IMG/VR virus record: IMGVR_UViG_3300028601_000021
Location: 1 to 64,000 of that record
DNA from: a virus
Taxonomy: Duplodnaviria; Caudoviricetes
Length of the DNA stretch: 64,000 nucleotides
Direction: 5' to 3' (one strand)
The notes under the pieces were generated by a model. That model had not been told where the DNA came from. It was given only the letters and a program-made list of their open reading frames with translations, and made no database searches. Every line of letters begins with the position of its first letter. Position 1 is the first letter of the stretch. Of the stretch, positions 255 through 45,177 are shown in pieces. The position numbers and the translations under genes were made by a program.

Positions 255-576
255 CTAGTTGTCCAGTAAATGCGCTACTATTTACCCGGTATGTACTACC
301 TGCTATATGTTTCCATATAGTACGGACTATATCTTCATCTATATCCCATTTATACAGATGCTCCCCGCTAGAGTACCAAACACTTGTACCCATATAGTCT
401 CTGAACTTTACCCTCATCAGGTCTTAGCTGCAGATTATCCATATATCTCCATACTTTTTATAACCGTCGCACTTAAGCTTATCTCATCTTTATGCTGTGG
501 TAATGGAGCTTTAGGACTTTCCCGCAATTCAAGGAGATGCAAACTATTATCACTAATAGAGTGGCCAATGTAATTT
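255..576 (-). ncRNA. Group I intron 3 (322 nt, no ORF)
   Basis: P GAAUUGCGGGAAA, Q AAUCUGCAGC, R GUUCAGAGACUA, S AAGAUAUAGUCC; 5' exon ends in U, intron ends in G. Confidence 0.9.
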
Positions 577-684
577 AGCATTTGGTGCAGTGAGAATCAA
601 AGGACTCAGCTCCAATGTCTCATCGTGGATATCTGTCTTAATCTTCGTCACGAACAATAGCTGAATAGCGTGCATTTTTAATGT
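577..684 (-). CDS. nvRNAP beta'-like subunit exon 3 (36 aa)
   Basis: Translates TLKMHAIQLLFVTKIKTDIHDETLELSPLILTAPNA, linking RNP|TL to NA|DFDG as expected for beta'. Confidence 0.9.
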
Positions 685-977
685 CTTTACTACCGATACA
701 GACGCTACTCCGTACCCGTATACCGTATAAGAAATATACGGTATGCCACCTATGTTTCCATAGGGAATAGACTATGTTTCCATCTCAGTGAGATGCTTGC
801 TCTTTCCACTAGCAATCGCTTCTAGTGTACTCCCTCACGGGATAGTCGTTACACACGCCCGAGTACGTTACATACTCTGCTGGCTCGGCGTTACCATATC
901 ACATAGTGACTTAGGCTTTCGCCGAATTAAGCAAGTTACGCACCCAATAGATCACTCTACTGGAGCCCTACATTATA
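685..977 (-). ncRNA. Group I intron 2 (293 nt, no ORF)
   Basis: P AAUUCGGCGAAA, Q AACGCCGAGC, R GUGUAACGACUA, S AACAUAGUC; intron 5' UAAUGU pairs perfectly with 3' exon ACAUUA (P10); U|...G boundaries. Confidence 0.9.
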
Positions 978-1257
978 AGGATTTCGACCTAACAAGCACG
1001 GTATTCCTTTCCATGGACACTCTCTCATCAGATCCATCATGATCTGATAGATATCTTCATCATAAACTACTAATGCTTTAAAATGCTTATACAAAGCATC
1101 ATTGATATTGTACTTCTTCCTGTGCACCAGTACATTGATGATCTGCAGCTTAAGTGCATTTACCATGAGCTTCCACGGCATATACAATTCATCTGCGATA
1201 TGTGGACCAGTGATAGGTGTACACACAGCACGATAAGACCAATGGCAACGCGTCCCG
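978..1257 (-). CDS. nvRNAP beta'-like subunit exon 2
   Basis: GTRCHWSYRAVCTPITGPHIADELYMPW...GIPCLLGRNP matches beta' regions G.R....RAV and RNP; same frame as ORF 957..1226. Confidence 0.9.
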
Positions 1258-5963: not shown

Positions 5964-7271
5964 TTAATTATCCATTAATACTTTACCATAAAGAGCGGTG
6001 TTGATGCCTTTATTATAGGACACAAATACACTATCACCCACTTTAGTAGCTGATATATCGTATTCACTCCATCCACCGGTAGTACTAGTATTGCACTGTA
6101 CAGGAGTACCGGCAGTGATCACATCGCCACGGATAGTTAGTACCACGGCATATAAATAATTATTATGACTTTCATTGCGATAACACACCCACACAGTAAT
6201 GTCCGATAACACCACAACCGACGTATAAGCAATGTGGGTATCGTTACACGATACTGGCGCAACTGCAGTGATATCGGTTCCGTCTATAATCAATACCGTT
6301 GCATATAAGTGATAACCGTTACTGTCGTTACGGTAGCACACTACTACTTTAGTGTCGGATAATGCGACAGCCGATAAGTGTCGGCTATTGGCACTATTAC
6401 ATTGTACCGGAGTACTAGCAGTGATGTTTGTACCATTTACTGTCAATACAACAGCGTATAGATACCCACTATGACTATCGTTACGATAACTGACCAATAC
6501 CTTAGTATCGGATAGTACTGCAGCTGAAACATATATATTGTTAGAACTATTACATTGTACTGGAATACCAGCAGATATACTAATACCGTCAATAGTCAAT
6601 ATTGCGGTATATAGATAATTATTATGATTCTGATTGCGATAAGTTATCAGTACTTTAGTATCAGATAGAACCACCGCTGATATATATTCGCTATCGGTAC
6701 TATTACATTGTACCGGAGTACTAGCAGTGATGTTTGTACCGTCGATTGTTAGTATCACGGCATACAAATAACTATTATGACTGTCGTTACTATAGCTCAC
6801 CAGTACTTTAGTATCAGATAGTACTACAGCCGAGTTAAAATAACCGGTGGTATCATGGCACAGAACCGGTACTCCTGCAGATATACCACTACCACTAATA
6901 GTCAACACTATAGCATATTTGTAACTATTGTAACTACCATTACTGTAACACACTAGTACTTTGGTATCGGATAATGCCACCGCTGAGACATATAGACTAT
7001 TGGTACTATTCAAACTATGCTCGATACCATTGGCACTACCATCCCAATCACTCCATGCTAATTTGATCTGAAACTGTACTGTGGTAGACCAGCTACTATC
7101 ACCTGTGGTAGGGTGACCGTGCATACCACGAGCATATAAGTTTACTCCCTGTGGTAGTACTGCTTCAGCTATCTGTAAAGCTGTAGTATAAGCACCTTCT
7201 ACATCATGTACTATATTAGAAAAAGCAGGATCAGTAGCCACTTGTACTCTAGTCTTGTTAGGCTGACTCAT
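5964..7271 (-). CDS. Paralogue family member 1: partial Fn3-like N-terminal module + ~51-aa repeat (likely beta-propeller) domain
   Basis: N-terminal ~70 aa shared with 27152 and 44137; six full repeats SAVxLSDTKVLVxY...LTIxG...PVQCN plus a partial seventh. Confidence 0.75.
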   Translation of the reverse strand: MSQPNKTRVQVATDPAFSNIVHDVEGAYTTALQIAEAVLPQGVNLYARGMHGHPTTGDSSWSTTVQFQIKLAWSDWDGSANGIEHSLNSTNSLYVSAVALSDTKVLVCYSNGSYNSYKYAIVLTISGSGISAGVPVLCHDTTGYFNSAVVLSDTKVLVSYSNDSHNSYLYAVILTIDGTNITASTPVQCNSTDSEYISAVVLSDTKVLITYRNQNHNNYLYTAILTIDGISISAGIPVQCNSSNNIYVSAAVLSDTKVLVSYRNDSHSGYLYAVVLTVNGTNITASTPVQCNSANSRHLSAVALSDTKVVVCYRNDSNGYHLYATVLIIDGTDITAVAPVSCNDTHIAYTSVVVLSDITVWVCYRNESHNNYLYAVVLTIRGDVITAGTPVQCNTSTTGGWSEYDISATKVGDSVFVSYNKGINTALYGKVLMDN

Positions 7272-7318
7272 ATAAATATACCTCTTATAGTTTATAGTTT
7301 AAATACTCTATAAAATAG

Positions 7319-27105: not shown

Positions 27106-27151
27106 ATTTTATAGAGTCTTTTAATTTAACTTATAAGAAGGAATCATTAAC

Positions 27152-28231
27152 ATGAGTGTACCAAATAAGACTAGAGTACAGGTAGCTACTGATAGTAGCT
27201 TTAGTAACATCATAGTAGATGAAGTAGGTGACTATAAGACAGTATTAGCATTAGCTAGTGCTGAATTACCTGTGGGTAGTAATTTGTATATCAGAGGCAT
27301 GCACGGTCATCCTGATACAGGTGATAGCCCATGGTCTACAGTGCATCAGTTTAAAGTGATGACACCTTATGCTAATGAGCTGTACTATACTGCAGGTGAT
27401 TTTACCTTTACAGTACCAGAGGGTGTCACTGAAATATGTATCGCAGCTACTCCTGGAGTAGACTACAGCTCAGCTGGAGAGCTGCTGAAAGCTTACACCG
27501 GTAAAACCGTAGCCTGTGTAGCTGGTAATAATACCGTACCTGTAGGTATAGACAGTATCGAACTGAGTGGTAAGGGAGCTGCTGGTACTAGTAGTACCAC
27601 ACTTACATATACCACATGTACCATGTATATAGATGCAGATACGATACCTAAAACATTATCGTCGATTCCTTCATATATATATGCCATGGCATATCATAAA
27701 TCCGGAGATAGTACTGTACTTACAAATACAAGATTCAATTTAGCTACTAACAACAGTAGTACTGTATCGTATTCCGCTACCGTTTATTCTGTGGTTGGTG
27801 GCGTGACAACTGGATATATCCATTATAACAAATCAGTATCCACTACTACAGGTGCATCTACTACAGCTATAGTAAATGGTACTACTTATACTTTCCCGGG
27901 TGGAGTAGGTGGAGCTGCAGCAGTGACTACCCATACAGTACCTGTAAATCCAGTAGTAGGAGCTACTATCTCAGCTACTATAGCCTCTGGTGGTACACTC
28001 AGCTACTCTTATAGTGCATATGCTGAGCAAGCTATAGGTAGCCTATTAGGTGATAACTTTACCTTATCACCTGTAGCTGCCGATATCGGTACTTACTCAG
28101 GTGGTATAGCTGCATGGCGTAACGCCATACCTGTCACACCTGGTAGTACTATACCAGTACGAGTAGGCTCAGGTGGAGCTGTAAATATCATTTGGGGTAC
28201 AGGTAGATCCTTTCCTAATAGTGAAGCTTAA
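27152..28231 (+). CDS. Paralogue family member 2: partial Fn3-like module + Gly/Thr-rich fibre/adhesin domain with variable insert
   Basis: Highly similar to 44137..45177 except for a central ~80-aa segment; AAGGA RBS. Confidence 0.75.
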   Translation: MSVPNKTRVQVATDSSFSNIIVDEVGDYKTVLALASAELPVGSNLYIRGMHGHPDTGDSPWSTVHQFKVMTPYANELYYTAGDFTFTVPEGVTEICIAATPGVDYSSAGELLKAYTGKTVACVAGNNTVPVGIDSIELSGKGAAGTSSTTLTYTTCTMYIDADTIPKTLSSIPSYIYAMAYHKSGDSTVLTNTRFNLATNNSSTVSYSATVYSVVGGVTTGYIHYNKSVSTTTGASTTAIVNGTTYTFPGGVGGAAAVTTHTVPVNPVVGATISATIASGGTLSYSYSAYAEQAIGSLLGDNFTLSPVAADIGTYSGGIAAWRNAIPVTPGSTIPVRVGSGGAVNIIWGTGRSFPNSEA

Positions 28232-28290: not shown

Positions 28291-29034
28291 TTAGTCACCG
28301 ACCATGCCAGATTTAAGTATCTCCATAGCTTCACGATAATCAACAGTATCCACTTTAGCCCACTCTTCTTCTGTCGAATACTGTATCTTATTGAGATGTG
28401 ATACATACAGTTTAATTAGTATGTATAAATCTCTAGAATCAAACTTATACATATGTACAGTATTCTTATTCAGATTATAAATAGGGATGGTAATCTCTAT
28501 ACAACAAAGGTATCGCACTAATTCAGCATCATTACCTTCTCTATATAGCCTAAATACATCCATGATACCATTACGTAAAAATACACCTTCTAAGTCTAAT
28601 AGACTTTTATAGGTATCACCTTCTATATTATCTATCAATTCTCTAGGTAAGGTGAATACAAAACTATCACTAGGATTATTCATCTTCTTTAAGAGATCTG
28701 TATATTTAGTCTCTTTATAGATAGCTAAGTTCTTTATTTTTACTTCTTCAGGTATCTCTTCCAATTTAGGAAATACCTGTACAGTCTTATTCACCTCATC
28801 AAATTCAGGATTTCCGAACGTGATAGTGTGAGTCATAGGGTCAAAATTAGATACTATATCAGTGATTTGATAGATATGGTCATCTAAAATAGAAATACCT
28901 AATTTAGAAAGCATTTCTTCATCACCCATAGATTTCTGTTCTTTATGCACATACCACTGTTTACCATTAGTCATGATCTTATCCTCCATAAGGGAAATAT
29001 ATTTATCATTTAGTACTATATGTTTAAAAAGCAT
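28291..29034 (-). CDS. Hypothetical protein, possibly tail-fibre assembly chaperone
   Basis: 247 aa (likely start at a downstream Met after GGAGG); follows the stalk gene; FDP.TH motif is weak support. Confidence 0.45.
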   Translation of the reverse strand: MLFKHIVLNDKYISLMEDKIMTNGKQWYVHKEQKSMGDEEMLSKLGISILDDHIYQITDIVSNFDPMTHTITFGNPEFDEVNKTVQVFPKLEEIPEEVKIKNLAIYKETKYTDLLKKMNNPSDSFVFTLPRELIDNIEGDTYKSLLDLEGVFLRNGIMDVFRLYREGNDAELVRYLCCIEITIPIYNLNKNTVHMYKFDSRDLYILIKLYVSHLNKIQYSTEEEWAKVDTVDYREAMEILKSGMVGD

Positions 29035-29104: not shown

Positions 29105-31189
29105 TTACTTAAGTTCAGTGGTATAAGAAGTCAGTACCACGTCAAAATCAGGTGCTACTTCATTATTACCATCCTGAGGATACACGATCTGAGGAGCAGC
29201 AGTAACGATCTGCTGTACCACTACCTGTTCGTAAGGAGTCAGTGTAAGAGTGAATCCAGTAGCAGGTACTTCCATATCACCATGGATAGGATAGGTAATC
29301 TGAGGAGTACCGGTATACGTGGTAGCTTCATCGTTAGTCACCAATACGGTGATCACCTTAGCTACAGCAGACTTTTCATCCAGAGCATCGATAGCTTCGA
29401 TAGAGAAACTATAAGTGGTATTGATAGCTACCGTAGGTACGGTTACAGTCACGATATCGGTACTGAGGATGTTGGACATCTTACTGAATGTCAATCCTAC
29501 GTTACCAACGATGTTGTACTTCAGAGAACTACGTTCAGCATCGTCACCACCATAGATCTGCATCAACATCGAAGATCCACCAGCGATGTTATTCGGCATA
29601 GTAGTGTAAATGCTATTAGGTGTGGGTAACGAGTTAATACGAACATTAGCCGTGTACTCAGAACTAGCACCATGAGCATCTACTGCAGTAATAGTGATCG
29701 GGAATGTCGTACCACGCTGAGGATTGTTGGTATCAGCAAACATAAGCACACTTTCGTTATGTGCGATACCACTAGTCTTAGCGAAAGTGATAGGACTACC
29801 TTCAGGAGAAGCTACACTGTAAGTGATAGCGCTACCATCAGAAGAAGTGGCGCCATTGAACTTCACCGCATAAGTACTACCGGGCTTCACCAAAGTAGGT
29901 ACAGTGTGGGTAAAGGCGCTCATATCAGGCAAGATATTCACAGTGAAGCCAGTGTATTCTTTCTCACGGAAAGTACCTACGCTGTCATAGGCCTTAACCT
30001 TAAAAGTATATACATGACCACGAGCAGCATCACCAGGTACAGCAACTGTAAACTCTTCATTTTCAGTAATACTGTCCACCTTACTGAAAACCAATCCACA
30101 ACCCATATCGTCAATAACATAAGTAATGACCTGACCATCGATATCGGTGGCACCAGAAATCTTTACTGTGTAGAAATGATTAGGTTCTACCATCATCGGG
30201 AGATTAATCAGCATGTTATCGATTACAGGGAGACTATTGATCTTGGTGACCATGACCTTAGTGTTAACAGCTTCCGATACTGCATACTTGGCAGTAATAG
30301 TAAACTGCTTAATAGCACCAGGCATAGCATCTGCAGGTACCAATACTTCAAGTTCTTCACCGAGTACGATACCTTCAGTCTTACTGAATACAAATCCACT
30401 GAGATGGGGTTTGATTTCAAAAGAAAGAGTCTCACCATCGATGACAGGTACATTTTCAATAGTGAAAGTGTAGGTCTGATCTACAGCTACGATCATAGGG
30501 ATACTACAAACCATAGCAGACAGATCAATACCGTCAGTAAGTGTACCGCCACCATTAGCCTTCAGTGATTCTACTTCTAATTCAGCAGCCACCAAACGAC
30601 TACTGAGATCGGCTAATGTAGTCACATGAGTACCAAGAAGAGTGGTGTTCTGTCCTACTGCGACCTGTAGGGCAGCGATATCATTCTTATTGATCTGAAC
30701 CTGAACATCAGTAGCAGCCAGACCATCTTCCAAATCCTGAATAGCACCACTGATACTACCGCTACCCATACCGAGGGATTCGTATACGGAATCCAGATTA
30801 CTGATATTCTCAGAGTTCTCACGTACGATCTGAAATTCAGTACTAAGAGCGGTGATCAAGTTCCTGACATCAGGGTGAGCCTGATTGTTAGTGTTGTGCT
30901 GTTCGATACCAGCTGTACCAGCAGACAGAGCTGTGATAGCAGCACGGATATCAGCATGTGCGGATACAGATACATTGTGATTAGAAATAGCGGTACTGAG
31001 ATTAGTCGGAGATACAGCAGTGATATTCTGGATCATCTGCTGAATGTAAAGATGAGCTCCTTCATCAGAGTTGTGGTTGGATACCAATTCGGACTGTTGT
31101 TCAAGTTTTACAGAGGTAGCAGTGATTTTATCAGCTGCCAATTGCAGCTGCTCTAATACTAACTGATGACTGGTTAAAGTATCGGACAT
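29105..31189 (-). CDS. Fibre/stalk protein: His-motif coiled coil + four Ig/cadherin-like repeats + two C-terminal PQIxYP peptides
   Basis: HNxxxxAH x3, coiled coil, ~100-aa repeats (N.LP...P..V.PG..Y...GA.D.DG..I.Y...L.FSK...I), duplicated C-terminal motif. Confidence 0.75.
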   Translation of the reverse strand: MSDTLTSHQLVLEQLQLAADKITATSVKLEQQSELVSNHNSDEGAHLYIQQMIQNITAVSPTNLSTAISNHNVSVSAHADIRAAITALSAGTAGIEQHNTNNQAHPDVRNLITALSTEFQIVRENSENISNLDSVYESLGMGSGSISGAIQDLEDGLAATDVQVQINKNDIAALQVAVGQNTTLLGTHVTTLADLSSRLVAAELEVESLKANGGGTLTDGIDLSAMVCSIPMIVAVDQTYTFTIENVPVIDGETLSFEIKPHLSGFVFSKTEGIVLGEELEVLVPADAMPGAIKQFTITAKYAVSEAVNTKVMVTKINSLPVIDNMLINLPMMVEPNHFYTVKISGATDIDGQVITYVIDDMGCGLVFSKVDSITENEEFTVAVPGDAARGHVYTFKVKAYDSVGTFREKEYTGFTVNILPDMSAFTHTVPTLVKPGSTYAVKFNGATSSDGSAITYSVASPEGSPITFAKTSGIAHNESVLMFADTNNPQRGTTFPITITAVDAHGASSEYTANVRINSLPTPNSIYTTMPNNIAGGSSMLMQIYGGDDAERSSLKYNIVGNVGLTFSKMSNILSTDIVTVTVPTVAINTTYSFSIEAIDALDEKSAVAKVITVLVTNDEATTYTGTPQITYPIHGDMEVPATGFTLTLTPYEQVVVQQIVTAAPQIVYPQDGNNEVAPDFDVVLTSYTTELK

Positions 31190-31350
31190 TATAAAGCTCC
31201 TATTAAATATGGTTGAGGGTTTCTCTATATAAAAGTCATATCGTGATACAGGTCAACTCCATATATACTAATGGTACAAATATACATATACAAAAGACCG
31301 ATTTAATATACTCAGTATTATGTATTCCCACTCGATATAGGAGATCAAAT

Positions 31351-44064: not shown

Positions 44065-44136
44065 GATGAAATGTAGTTGTAAATACCGACTATTGTATAG
44101 AGTCTTTTAAATAGTTAAAATAGGAGTACAATTAAT

Positions 44137-45177
44137 ATGGCTAGTCCTAACAAAACCAGAATACAAGTAGCTACTGATCCTGCTTTTAGTAATATCATCT
44201 ATGACGTAAATGGAGCTTACACCACAGAGCTACTGATAGCTGAAAGTGAGCTACCTACTGGTACTAATCTCTATGCACGTGGTATGCATGGTCATCCTGA
44301 TACTGGAGATAGTAGCTGGAGTACTACGGTGCAGTTTATGGTAGCTGTAGCTTATGGTAATAGTCTCTACTATACTGCTGGAGACTATACGTTTACAGTA
44401 CCAGCTGGGGTAAATGAGATATGCATAGCTGCTACTCCTGGAGCTGACTATAGTAGTGCTGGAGAACTATTAAAAGCTTATACTGGCAAGACAGTAGCAT
44501 GTGTAGCTGGTAATAATACAGTACCAGTAGGTATCAGTAGTGTCACTCTCAGTGGTAAAGGAGCAGCTGGTACTAGTGGATATGGTGCGTATGTGGTAAG
44601 TTCGTATACATACGCAGCTAATGCATCACCTAGTTCATTTTCATCTCCTCCCAGTACTATACAAGCTTATATCTCTGGAACTCTATATACATTCTATAAA
44701 AGAAATACTACTACCACGCAGGTGACTTATCAATATCAGATGTCGGAACCAGGCGACGCATATGTGACGTATACCAGATCTCCAGTCACCACTACCGGTG
44801 CAGCTACTACTGCAGTAGTAAATGGTACTACATATACTTTCCCTGGGGGAATAGGTGGAGCTGCACCTATCACTAATCACACAGTAGCTGTAAATCCTGC
44901 TACTGGAGCTACTATCTCAGCTAATATAGCAGCTGGTGGTAGTCTCAGCTATAGCTACAGTGCCTACGCTATAAATGCTTTATCCAGCTTATTAGGTAAT
45001 AACTTTAGCTTATCTCCAGTAGCTAAAGATGTAGGTACCTACGTAGGTGGTATAGCAGCATGGAGGAACAGTATCCCTGTATCTCCAGGAGATACTATCC
45101 CAGTACATGTGTCTGCTGGTGGAGCTGTAAATATCATCTGGGGTACAGGTAGAGCTTTTCCTAATAGCGAAGTATAG
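44137..45177 (+). CDS. Paralogue family member 3: partial Fn3-like module + fibre/adhesin domain with variable insert
   Basis: Conserved N- and C-terminal parts with 27152..28231; AGGAG RBS. Confidence 0.75.
   Translation: MASPNKTRIQVATDPAFSNIIYDVNGAYTTELLIAESELPTGTNLYARGMHGHPDTGDSSWSTTVQFMVAVAYGNSLYYTAGDYTFTVPAGVNEICIAATPGADYSSAGELLKAYTGKTVACVAGNNTVPVGISSVTLSGKGAAGTSGYGAYVVSSYTYAANASPSSFSSPPSTIQAYISGTLYTFYKRNTTTTQVTYQYQMSEPGDAYVTYTRSPVTTTGAATTAVVNGTTYTFPGGIGGAAPITNHTVAVNPATGATISANIAAGGSLSYSYSAYAINALSSLLGNNFSLSPVAKDVGTYVGGIAAWRNSIPVSPGDTIPVHVSAGGAVNIIWGTGRAFPNSEV

What the first reader, a model, noticed from the sequence alone, without database searches (positions are those of the whole stretch)
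29105..29320. Candidate split-Fn3 docking system: a stalk protein ends in two donor-strand-like peptides that could complete the truncated domain at the start of three dispersed tip proteins
Seen: the 694-aa stalk ends with two tandem peptides (TPQITYPIHGDMEVPATGFTLTLTPY; APQIVYPQDGNNEVAPDFDVVLTSY) and then stops. Three other genes (5964-7271, 27152-28231, 44137-45177) begin abruptly with PNKTR(V/I)QVATD..FSNI..D...LP.G.NLY.RG.HGH...GDS.WS...QF. From my recollection of phage virion Fn3-like repeats, these read PxIxxPxxG..V......(F/Y)...TxWQ(I/V)AxDxxFxxIV...LxxxxxYYxR....SxWS...F in one chain. Here the first strands and the remainder are on separate polypeptides. Inference: beta-strand complementation lets one scaffold with two sockets per chain display interchangeable receptor-binding modules, a protein-level mix-and-match host-range system. 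I do not know of this being described.
Basis: inference. Interest (0 to 1): 0.88.

Follow-up and report, generated by a model that had tools for sequence, protein, structure and literature searches.

The report
Split Fn3 plug joining phage fibre parts
A fibre protein of an uncultured large phage ends in the first two strands of a small beta-sandwich domain, and three separately encoded, probably receptor-binding proteins begin with the rest of that domain, so the tips most likely snap onto the fibre by rebuilding one domain from two chains, a docking mode I did not find described for phages.

Summary
The 694-aa stalk (29105-31189, minus) ends in two tandem peptides. Three dispersed genes start at residue 1 with a shared 70-residue module. 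An exhaustive profile search shows this module is strands C-G of a widespread Fn3-type repeat. The stalk peptides align in register with strands A-B. Joined in silico, stalk end plus tip start fits the full-unit profile without any indel, and these are the two best "completing" peptides among 46,295 windows of the genome.

Four other stalk homologues (658, 659, 1098 and 2591 aa; the 659-aa collinear orthologue is 29% identical to the window's stalk) also end in one such peptide. The 1098- and 2591-aa stalk genes are flanked by genes that start with the truncated module. A fused single-chain fibre also exists.

Modelling gives only weak support: score 0.41, best control 0.00. The stalk tail is disordered alone, and the tip module lacks a stable E strand alone. 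Binding itself is untested.

I read this as split-domain (strand-complementation) docking of exchangeable tips, at about 60% confidence. I found no paper describing it for phage fibres. Earlier AI notes of this scan report other split-Fn3 cases on other DNA (a 206-kb phage, a giant virus, CPR bacteria).

The parts
29105..31189 (-). Stalk gene (P0004, 694 aa), including the stop codon
   Evidence: ORF. It is a collinear orthologue of a 659-aa protein of a 286.7-kb phage (29% identity over 653 aa, E 1e-56).
30557..31189 (-). Stalk residues 1-211: helical, probably a coiled-coil shaft, with repeated H-N-x(5)-A-H motifs
   Evidence: The AF2 monomer model is all-helical here at low pLDDT, as expected for an oligomeric coiled coil. 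The motif recurs in P0179, P0180 and P0181. The oligomeric state is inferred.
29336..30517 (-). Stalk residues 225-618: four Ig-like beta-sandwich repeats
   Evidence: AF2 gives pLDDT 70-85 and an all-beta fold. The same repeat occurs about 9 times in P0180 and about 24 times in P0179.
29231..29308 (-). Donor peptide 1 (residues 628-653): candidate A-B strand hairpin
   Evidence: Aligns to full-unit profile positions 3-34. It is the second-best completing window of 46,295 (80.4 bits).
29198..29230 (-). 11-residue linker between the two donor peptides (residues 654-664)
   Evidence: Read from the sequence. It is conserved in four close relatives.
29123..29197 (-). Donor peptide 2 (residues 665-689): candidate A-B strand hairpin. 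Five residues and the stop (29105-29122) follow.
   Evidence: Aligns to profile positions 5-34. The exact C-terminal 39 residues are the best completing window in the genome (80.5 bits). The junction with each tip has zero indels.
27152..27361 (+). Acceptor module of tip protein P0002 (residues 1-70): strands C-G only
   Evidence: Profile positions 41-108, E 2e-16.
27152..28231 (+). Tip protein P0002 (359 aa). Its 3' end faces the stalk gene's 3' end, 0.9 kb away.
   Evidence: The same arrangement is seen in a relative's contig, L011.
44137..44346 (+). Acceptor module of tip protein P0003 (residues 1-70)
   Evidence: Profile positions 39-108, E 2e-17. This chain was used in the complex model.
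44137..45177 (+). Tip protein P0003 (346 aa), a paralogue of P0002
   Evidence: 67% and 66% identity in the module and the rest.
7062..7271 (-). Acceptor module of tip protein P0001 (residues 1-70)
   Evidence: Profile positions 40-108, E 9e-18. AF2 gives strands at 7-12, 20-26, 44-52, 59-61 and 65-68, and no strand at 30-40, where pLDDT is 56.
5964..7061 (-). Beta-propeller body of P0001 (residues 71-435), the probable receptor-binding part
   Evidence: AF2 pLDDT is about 90. Foldseek matches sialidases, TolB and WD40 propellers at E about 1e-8.
31223..31229 (-). TATAGAG promoter-like motif, 33 nt before the stalk ATG
27110..27116 (+). TATAGAG promoter-like motif, 35 nt before the P0002 ATG
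44096..44102 (+). TATAGAG promoter-like motif, 34 nt before the P0003 ATG
7306..7312 (-). TATAGAG promoter-like motif, 34 nt before the P0001 ATG

Best explanation
The stalk is a virion fibre shaft: a helical, probably oligomeric N-terminal rod, four Ig-like spacers, and a floppy C-terminal tail. The tail holds two copies of the first two strands (the A-B hairpin) of an Fn3-type beta-sandwich. Each of at least three separately transcribed tip proteins begins with the other five strands (C, C', E, F, G) of that same domain, followed by a variable, probably receptor-binding body (a beta-propeller in P0001; an unassigned fold in P0002 and P0003).

During assembly a stalk hairpin inserts into the open side of a tip's incomplete sandwich. 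Strand B would pair with E, and A would close against G. One complete domain is thereby rebuilt from two polypeptides, and this fixes the tip to the fibre. Because all tips in a genome keep nearly the same acceptor half while their bodies differ, tips can be exchanged or added without changing the shaft.

Shown by computation: the complementary halves, their conservation, their genomic linkage, the fused ancestor-like form, and the disorder of each half alone. Inferred: actual binding, the strand pairing, stoichiometry, location on the tail rather than the head, and the role in host range.
For: 1. The tip module is the C-G part of a known single-chain domain. The exhaustive search gave 499 hits, mostly tandem complete units. 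Complete units hit Pfam fn3, Ig_Rha78A_N, Pur_ac_phosph_N and PhoD_N.
2. The halves are complementary with no overlap or gap. Tips map to profile positions 39-108 and donors to 3-34. Stalk end plus tip start aligns to positions 4-108 with zero indels and gains about 19 bits over the tip alone.
3. Specificity is high. Of 46,295 39-residue windows from all long frames of the genome, the two best completers are the two stalk peptides (80.5 bits at the exact C-terminus, and 80.4). The best non-stalk window scores 75.6 and the median is 61.6.
4. The feature is conserved. Stalk homologues of 2591 aa (P0179), 1098 aa (P0180), 659 aa (P0181/P0182) and 658 aa (P0183) each end in one such peptide at the extreme C-terminus. 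The 659-aa one was found by a donor profile that did not include it (E 1.8e-7).
5. The gene types are linked. Acceptor genes flank the stalk gene in L009/L013 and in L010, and one lies 0.9 kb from it in the window and in L011.
6. The tips are mosaic. Their modules are 84-94% identical where their bodies are 27-43% identical. About 29 clusters at 50% identity or less start with the module at residue 1 and carry different bodies.
7. In the 286.7-kb phage the donors of two different stalks are 18/27 identical, while the 300 residues before them are 32% identical.
8. A fused form exists. P0035 has a fibre N-terminus, a coiled coil, an Ig domain, complete units and a propeller-like end in one chain.
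9. In models, the stalk tail 619-694 has pLDDT about 30 and no fold alone. The E-strand region of the tip module is not formed alone.
10. Complex prediction gave weak support: score 0.41, best of 3 controls 0.00. The mark was reached by 58 of 80 solved complexes and 2 of 110 mismatched pairs, but at 0.60 or under by only 7 of those 80 solved complexes and by both mismatches that passed. The runs agree in at least 99% of contacts, and partner pLDDT is at least 55. The tip module's pLDDT was 75-77 with the stalk tail, against 54 with unrelated partners.
11. All four genes have their own TATAGAG motif 33-35 nt before the ATG, consistent with co-expression.
Against: - No experiment and no confident interface. 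The complex score is in the band where, by the tool's own calibration, a pass is more often wrong than right unless the guess was likely beforehand. Halves of a split domain can also pass by likeness to intact domains.
- Each donor alone scores only 3.9-4.6 bits inside the full protein, and a junk antisense frame scored 7.0.
- The numbers do not match simply. The window has two donors for three tips; the 286.7-kb phage has two donors (one per stalk) for at least four tips of two module types.
- For the tips on L001, L003 and L007 no donor was seen within 10 kb, and their whole contigs could not be scanned.
- The alignments behind the stalk model are shallow (5 close sequences), so the disorder of the tail could reflect a lack of information.
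- Nothing shows that the stalk is part of the virion, apart from its architecture and neighbouring structural genes.
Confidence: 0.6

Rival explanations
1. Ordinary anchor domain. The 70-residue module is a self-sufficient, trimmed sandwich that docks the tips to the baseplate or to the stalk's Ig-like domains through surface contacts. The stalk's C-terminal peptides are a leftover of an ancestral fused unit, or serve another purpose such as folding or oligomerisation of the stalk end, or host binding.
For: Conserved N-terminal anchors with variable bodies are the rule in multi-RBP phages (PMC6872550, PMC8825819, PMC13352976) and do not need fold complementation. The complex model gave only a weak pass. 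AF2 still places four to five strands of the module at pLDDT 66-88 without a partner. Donor and tip numbers do not match one to one.
Against: A leftover would not stay at the exact C-terminus, in register and with the native loop length, in five stalks whose bodies are about 30% identical. The module keeps the core-facing pattern of complete units, and its E region is unformed alone. The stalk peptides are the best completers in the proteome.
Confidence: 0.22
2. Complementation occurs but with other partners. The tips' missing strands come from a protein other than this stalk (for example one encoded in the unsequenced half of the genome), or the stalk hairpins pair with each other or between stalk chains to cap the fibre.
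For: The record is only 54% complete. The 286.7-kb relative has two different donor-ending stalks, so partner choice is open. The two tandem hairpins in the window's stalk could in principle form a four-stranded sheet.
Against: No other frame in the 156 kb carries the motif or completes the module as well. Stalk and tip genes are adjacent in three lineages. The stalk tail does not fold on itself in the monomer model.
Confidence: 0.12
3. Artefact: a broken or mis-assembled fused gene, or exons joined by splicing in this intron-rich genome.
For: The genome holds group I introns (Rfam; scan notes), and one relative's tip gene is frameshifted (L010).
Against: Tips lie 1-23 kb from the stalk on either strand. 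Each has its own promoter-like motif, Shine-Dalgarno sequence and ATG. No intron model matches near them. The same break point recurs in about 29 protein clusters and five stalks from independent assemblies.
Confidence: 0.02

Closest known systems
Donor-strand complementation/exchange in chaperone-usher pili (Fim/Pap) and related fibres (archaeal bundling pili, PMC9245690; CPR pili preprint, PMC13278184)
   Same: An Ig-type sandwich is encoded incomplete, and the missing strand(s) come from another polypeptide, which makes a very stable non-covalent joint.
   Different: In pili a single G strand is missing and is given by the next identical-type subunit, so a polymer forms with help from a chaperone and an usher. 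Here a two-strand A-B hairpin is missing. The donor sits at the C-terminus of a different protein (the shaft), the joint is heterotypic and terminal rather than polymerising, and no chaperone or usher was identified. The setting is a phage particle.
Branched receptor-binding complexes of phages: KP32/K11/KP34 RBP1 branching domain plus RBP2 conserved docking peptide (PMC6872550, PMC13352976); CBA120/Ackermannviridae TSP1-4 (PMC8825819, PMC11414711); RaK2/phiK64-1 and phiKp24 (PMC10253068, PMC9700779)
   Same: Several receptor-binding proteins per genome share a conserved N-terminal attachment element and have divergent bodies. They hang on one primary fibre protein, and the modular design allows swapping.
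   Different: Those systems use a complete T4 gp10-like branching domain on the primary protein and a short peptide or anchor domain on the secondary one. Here no gp10-like domain was detected. The polarity is reversed, with the peptide on the shaft and the domain on the tip, and the two elements are halves of one Fn3-type fold.
Single-chain phage tail fibres with tandem Fn3-type units before the receptor-binding end
   Same: The same domain family, the same order of parts (coiled coil, Ig-like domain, Fn3-type unit, propeller-like end), and local similarity to a stalk homologue (P0180 residues 58-166, E 7e-4).
   Different: In those fibres everything is in one chain. Here the chain is cut in the B-C loop of the last unit, and the distal part is multiplied into paralogues.
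Engineered fragment complementation of FN3 monobody scaffolds (mentioned in PMC11666773; original work recalled from memory, not read here)
   Same: It shows that an FN3 sandwich split into two fragments can reassemble non-covalently.
   Different: That system is laboratory-made, with no natural biological role.

Membership tests
Fn3-type beta-sandwich repeat (Pfam fn3 PF00041 / Ig_Rha78A_N PF25788 / Pur_ac_phosph_N PF16656 group) | Sequence signature of strands C-G (Q-[VI]-[AS]-T-D, Y-x-R-x-x-H, W-S, F at the end) | tested here: met
   Tips match the full-unit profile at positions 39-108 with E 1e-16 to 1e-17. Complete homologous units hit the Pfam families. The nearest PDB sequence is the N-terminal domain of 3A0O, at a weak E of 0.09.
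Fn3-type beta-sandwich repeat (Pfam fn3 PF00041 / Ig_Rha78A_N PF25788 / Pur_ac_phosph_N PF16656 group) | All seven strands (A to G) in one polypeptide | tested here: not met
   Tips start at profile position 39-41 with Met at residue 1, and only 5-9 open codons lie upstream. The stalk stops at about position 38. Neither chain alone is a complete member.
Fn3-type beta-sandwich repeat (Pfam fn3 PF00041 / Ig_Rha78A_N PF25788 / Pur_ac_phosph_N PF16656 group) | The stalk tail peptides are homologous to strands A-B of the same unit | tested here: inconclusive
   The register is right, but each peptide scores only 3.9-4.6 bits within the whole protein. Scored as a 120-residue tail, E is 4e-4 for the window stalk and 1.8e-3 (14.4 bits) for P0179. 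The peptides are the top two of 46,295 windows in the junction test.
Donor-strand complementation systems (chaperone-usher type) | Acceptor fold incomplete and unstable on its own | tested here: inconclusive
   Two of seven strands are missing by profile coordinates. The E region is unformed in AF2. Module pLDDT is 54 with unrelated partners against 75-77 with the stalk tail. Stability was not measured.
Donor-strand complementation systems (chaperone-usher type) | Donor strand(s) from another polypeptide bind in the groove | tested here: inconclusive
   Complex prediction gave weak support: score 0.41, best control 0.00. The mark was reached by 58 of 80 solved complexes and 2 of 110 mismatched pairs, but at 0.60 or under by only 7 of the 80 and by both passing mismatches. 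No interface was reported.
Donor-strand complementation systems (chaperone-usher type) | Dedicated periplasmic chaperone and outer-membrane usher; homopolymerising subunits | tested here: not met
   The four proteins themselves gave no Pfam or PHROG hit to chaperone or usher families, and 20 neighbouring window proteins gave no PHROG hit to them. Tips carry no donor of their own and the stalk carries no acceptor. The system therefore works like DSC but is not a member of that pilus family.
Branched RBP complexes with a T4 gp10-like branching domain | gp10-like branching domain on the primary fibre | tested here: not met
   The stalk has no Pfam or PHROG match to such a domain. The AF2 model shows only helices and Ig-like sandwiches.
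Branched RBP complexes with a T4 gp10-like branching domain | Several RBPs share a conserved N-terminal attachment element and have divergent bodies | tested here: met
   Module identity is 84-94% against 27-43% for the bodies among relatives. There are three tips in the window and at least four in the 286.7-kb phage.

The most novel reading that the evidence does not exclude
A natural plug-and-socket made from a split Fn3-type domain is the general way a lineage of phiKZ-related large phages hangs interchangeable receptor-binding tips on fibre shafts of very different length (4 to about 24 Ig-like spacers). Donor hairpins and acceptor modules co-evolve within each genome and so define compatibility groups. 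Duplicating the hairpin, as in this window, doubles the number of tips per shaft. This would be the first viral use of fold complementation for host-recognition modularity, and a ready-made non-covalent tag/catcher pair.
Probability: 0.5. Interest if true: 0.82.

Novelty: new variant of a known kind. Interest (0 to 1): 0.72.

Why it matters
How multi-receptor phages attach and exchange their receptor-binding proteins is known in only a few systems, all of which use complete docking domains. A domain split between shaft and tip would add a different principle, fold complementation as in pili, to phage assembly. It would explain how tips dispersed over a large genome are recruited to one fibre. 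It would also give a sequence rule for predicting which tips fit which shaft in metagenomic phages: one protein ends in the A-B hairpin and another starts at strand C. The pair is small (about 30 plus 70 residues) and could be tested directly as a protein-docking tool.

Tried and rejected
- GenBank phages: no DNA or protein match for the stalk or the tip module.
- IMG/VR: no relative of the window's tip module or of P0142. The 24-sequence module alignment was too diverse for the locus finder.
- Short contigs around distant tips (L001-L007): no donor motif within 10 kb. The 1234-aa fibre next to P0160 ends differently. Whole JGI/ENA contigs could not be scanned, so absence there is untested.
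- Scoring the donors inside the full stalk frame was not significant, and an antisense junk frame (150877-151020) scored higher. I replaced this with tail-only and junction tests.
- Trans-splicing or intron-half idea, prompted by the introns in this genome, was rejected. Each gene has its own promoter-like motif, SD and ATG, and Rfam finds introns only at 303-990.
- The 247-aa gene downstream of the stalk as a conserved partner or chaperone: it has no detectable similarity to the 235-aa gene in the same position in the 286.7-kb phage, no family hit in the one library tried, PHROGs, and its role is left open.
- PDB sequence search for the P0073-type tip body found nothing.
- Literature searches for strand complementation or donor strands in phage fibres found nothing relevant.
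Full report
OBSERVATION. The four ORFs are as described. The stalk P0004 (29105-31189, minus strand, 694 aa) ends in two related peptides, residues 628-653 and 665-689. An 11-residue linker lies between them, and five residues follow the second. P0001, P0002 and P0003 share a 70-residue N-terminal module that is 60-77% identical, with 43 invariant columns, and that starts at residue 1. Only 5-9 codons are open upstream of each ATG.

In the six-frame translation of the whole 156,029-bp record, the acceptor signature occurs three times. The motif P-x-[IVL]-x-x-P-x-x-G occurs twice, both in the stalk tail. The record is only 54% complete by CheckV, so these counts are lower bounds.

WHAT THE MODULE IS. 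A profile of the three modules, scored against 1.84 billion representative proteins, gave 499 hits at E<=0.001. Most are large proteins with up to 26 tandem matches. Extending those matches upstream shows a unit of about 95-105 aa. It starts with a P-x-I-x-x-P-x-x-G segment and a second strand ending in S-x-F. A loop follows, and then comes the part that matches the tips. Complete units hit Pfam fn3, Ig_Rha78A_N, Pur_ac_phosph_N and PhoD_N, so the unit is an Fn3-type sandwich. About 29 clusters (at 50% identity or less) instead begin with the module at residue 1 and carry quite different bodies behind it: propellers and at least two other types. The truncation is therefore a conserved architecture and not a gene-calling accident.

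COMPLEMENTARITY. I built a full-unit profile from 120 complete units. The tips align to positions 39-108 (E 1e-16 to 1e-17) and the two stalk peptides to positions 3-34 and 5-34. Scored inside the long stalk frame, the peptides are not significant (3.9 and 4.6 bits), and a junk antisense frame scores 7.0.

Three better tests followed:
- Scored as a 120-residue tail, the window stalk gives E 4e-4, and the tail of the 2591-aa homologue gives 14.4 bits.
- Placing the last 39 stalk residues in front of a tip's first 75 residues, in a script only, gives one alignment over positions 4-108 with no indel. It gains about 19 bits over the tip alone. The pairs from two other phages need only 1-3 inserted residues. 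The cut thus lies in the B-C loop, and nothing is missing or duplicated.
- I repeated this with every 39-residue window of all 145 other long frames of the genome (46,295 windows). The two best positions are the exact C-terminus of the stalk (80.5 bits) and donor 1 (80.4). The best window outside the stalk scores 75.6 and the median is 61.6.

INDEPENDENT GENES. Each of the four genes has its own Shine-Dalgarno sequence and ATG, and a TATAGAG motif ending 33-35 nt before the ATG. Two of them follow a terminator-like hairpin. Rfam finds group I introns only at 303-990. Splicing or a broken fused gene is therefore not the explanation.

COMPARATIVE EVIDENCE. Close relatives of the stalk (84-96% identity) keep both peptides. 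More distant homologues were found next to distant tips.
- In a 286.7-kb IMG/VR phage (and its 300-kb JGI twin), a 2591-aa protein (P0179) has the same N-terminal H-N-x(5)-A-H-P-D-I-R motif and about 24 of the same Ig-like repeats. It ends in one A-B-like peptide. A tip gene lies divergently upstream (P0084) and another directly downstream.
- A 1098-aa homologue (P0180) ends the same way and is flanked by tip genes on both sides.
- A donor profile searched against the whole 286.7-kb record found, besides P0179, one further hit (E 1.8e-7). It lies at the extreme C-terminus of a 659-aa protein that is the collinear orthologue of the window's stalk (29% identity over 653 aa, E 1e-56).
- A 62%-identical relative of that orthologue (P0183) keeps the peptide too.

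So five stalk proteins, with 4 to about 24 spacers, end in this hairpin, and only the window's lineage has two copies. The 286.7-kb phage has at least four tips.

Tips are mosaic: modules are 84-94% identical where bodies are 27-43% identical. Within one genome the donors of two different stalks are 18/27 identical, while the 300 residues before them are 32% identical. This fits selection to match shared acceptors, though that reading is inference.

A fused form exists. P0035 (1290 aa) has a fibre N-terminus, a coiled coil, an Ig-like domain locally similar to P0180 residues 58-166 (E 7e-4), several complete units and a propeller-like end in one chain.

STRUCTURE PREDICTION. The AF2 model of the stalk monomer is helical at residues 1-211, has four sandwiches at 225-618 (pLDDT 70-85), and has no fold at 619-694 (pLDDT about 30). 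The alignment has only five close sequences.

The AF2 model of P0001 has a confident propeller (pLDDT about 90; Foldseek hits sialidase, TolB and WD40 propellers). Its N-terminal module has strands at 7-12, 20-26, 44-52, 59-61 and 65-68. It has no strand at 30-40 (pLDDT 56), the position of strand E, which in an Fn3 fold pairs with B.

Complex prediction of the tip module with stalk residues 620-694 gave weak support. The score was 0.41 and the best of 3 controls was 0.00. The mark was reached by 58 of 80 solved complexes and 2 of 110 mismatched pairs, but at 0.60 or under by only 7 of those 80 and by both mismatches that passed. The runs agree in at least 99% of contacts, and partner pLDDT is at least 55. 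The module's own pLDDT was 75-77 with the stalk tail and 54 with unrelated partners. No interface was reported. Because the two chains are halves of a known fold, the pass may reflect likeness to intact domains.

MECHANISM. I consider fold complementation most likely (about 0.6). The A-B hairpin at the stalk's end inserts into the five-strand tip module and rebuilds one Fn3-type domain across two chains, fixing exchangeable tips to the shaft. Because A and B form an antiparallel hairpin, both of its ends leave on the same side. An internal hairpin (donor 1) is therefore topologically as usable as the terminal one. Stoichiometry, oligomeric state, tail-versus-head location and the host-range role are all inferred. 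Neighbouring genes include tail and head-tail joining proteins.

RIVALS.
- An ordinary self-sufficient anchor module with a vestigial stalk tail (about 0.22).
- Complementation with other partners (about 0.12).
- An artefact (about 0.02).

COMPARISON AND NOVELTY. In function this resembles the branched receptor-binding complexes of KP32-, CBA120- and RaK2-like phages (PMC6872550, PMC13352976, PMC8825819, PMC11414711, PMC10253068, PMC9700779). No gp10-like branching domain is present, however, and the polarity is reversed. In mechanism it resembles donor-strand complementation of pili (PMC9245690, PMC13278184). It differs in that a two-strand hairpin is donated, the joint is heterotypic, and no chaperone-usher machinery was identified. 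Four literature searches found no description of strand complementation in phage fibres. Earlier AI notes of this scan describe other split-Fn3 arrangements on other DNA: a 206-kb phage, a giant virus and CPR bacteria. I did not test those. They suggest the principle may be more common than the literature shows.

CAVEATS. All evidence is computational. The window's genome is a fragment. Only a handful of lineages are available. Donor and tip numbers do not match one to one. For several distant tips, the rest of the genome could not be examined.

Noticed in passing
window 303-609 and 748-990 (minus): Two group I introns reach Rfam's gathering score (91.7 and 66.6 bits). Earlier notes of the scan place them inside an RNA polymerase gene and report more introns elsewhere in this genome.
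   Followed up: partly
window 7306-7312, 27110-27116, 31223-31229, 44096-44102; also genome 71004, 77846, 131948, 68077: A TATAGAG motif ends 30-36 nt before the start codon of the stalk, the three tips and a few other genes. It is probably one promoter class. There are 59 copies in 156 kb, and 21 have an ORF of 80 aa or more starting 20-60 nt downstream.
   Followed up: partly
window 27152-28231 and 44137-45177: P0002 and P0003 are about 66% identical overall but differ in a central stretch. Their shared C-terminal 19 residues match the end of phrog_4474. The fold of this tip body is unassigned.
   Followed up: no
whole record G000: CheckV completeness is only 54%, and a 92%-identical stalk lies on a 254-kb ENA contig. 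The 156-kb record is therefore probably about half of a jumbo-phage genome. Relatives carry phiKZ_IP and Phage_TTP_15 genes.
   Followed up: partly
G001 (IMGVR_UViG_3300004151_000006) positions 2-43 and 286646-286687: The 'inverted terminal repeats' of this IMG/VR record are the first 14 codons of tip modules at both contig ends. They are probably an assembly break at paralogous tip genes rather than true genome ends.
   Followed up: no
L019 6811-7377 (minus): A 188-aa helical protein of the 286.7-kb phage carries the same H-x(5)-A-H-P-D-I-R motif as the stalk N-termini but has no Ig-like repeats and no donor peptide.
   Followed up: no
L010 3767-3994 and 3948-4772: The tip gene downstream of the 1098-aa stalk is split into two overlapping frames just after its module. 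This is either a frameshift or a sequencing error in a Logan contig.
   Followed up: no
L002 152-784: A 210-aa paralogue of the P0073-type tip body lacks the N-terminal module and sits directly upstream of the full tip gene.
   Followed up: no
window 28291-29034 (minus): The 247-aa gene directly downstream of the stalk is conserved in close relatives (L011, L012). It has no PHROG family hit (the only library tried) and no detectable similarity to the gene in the same position in the 286.7-kb phage.
   Followed up: partly
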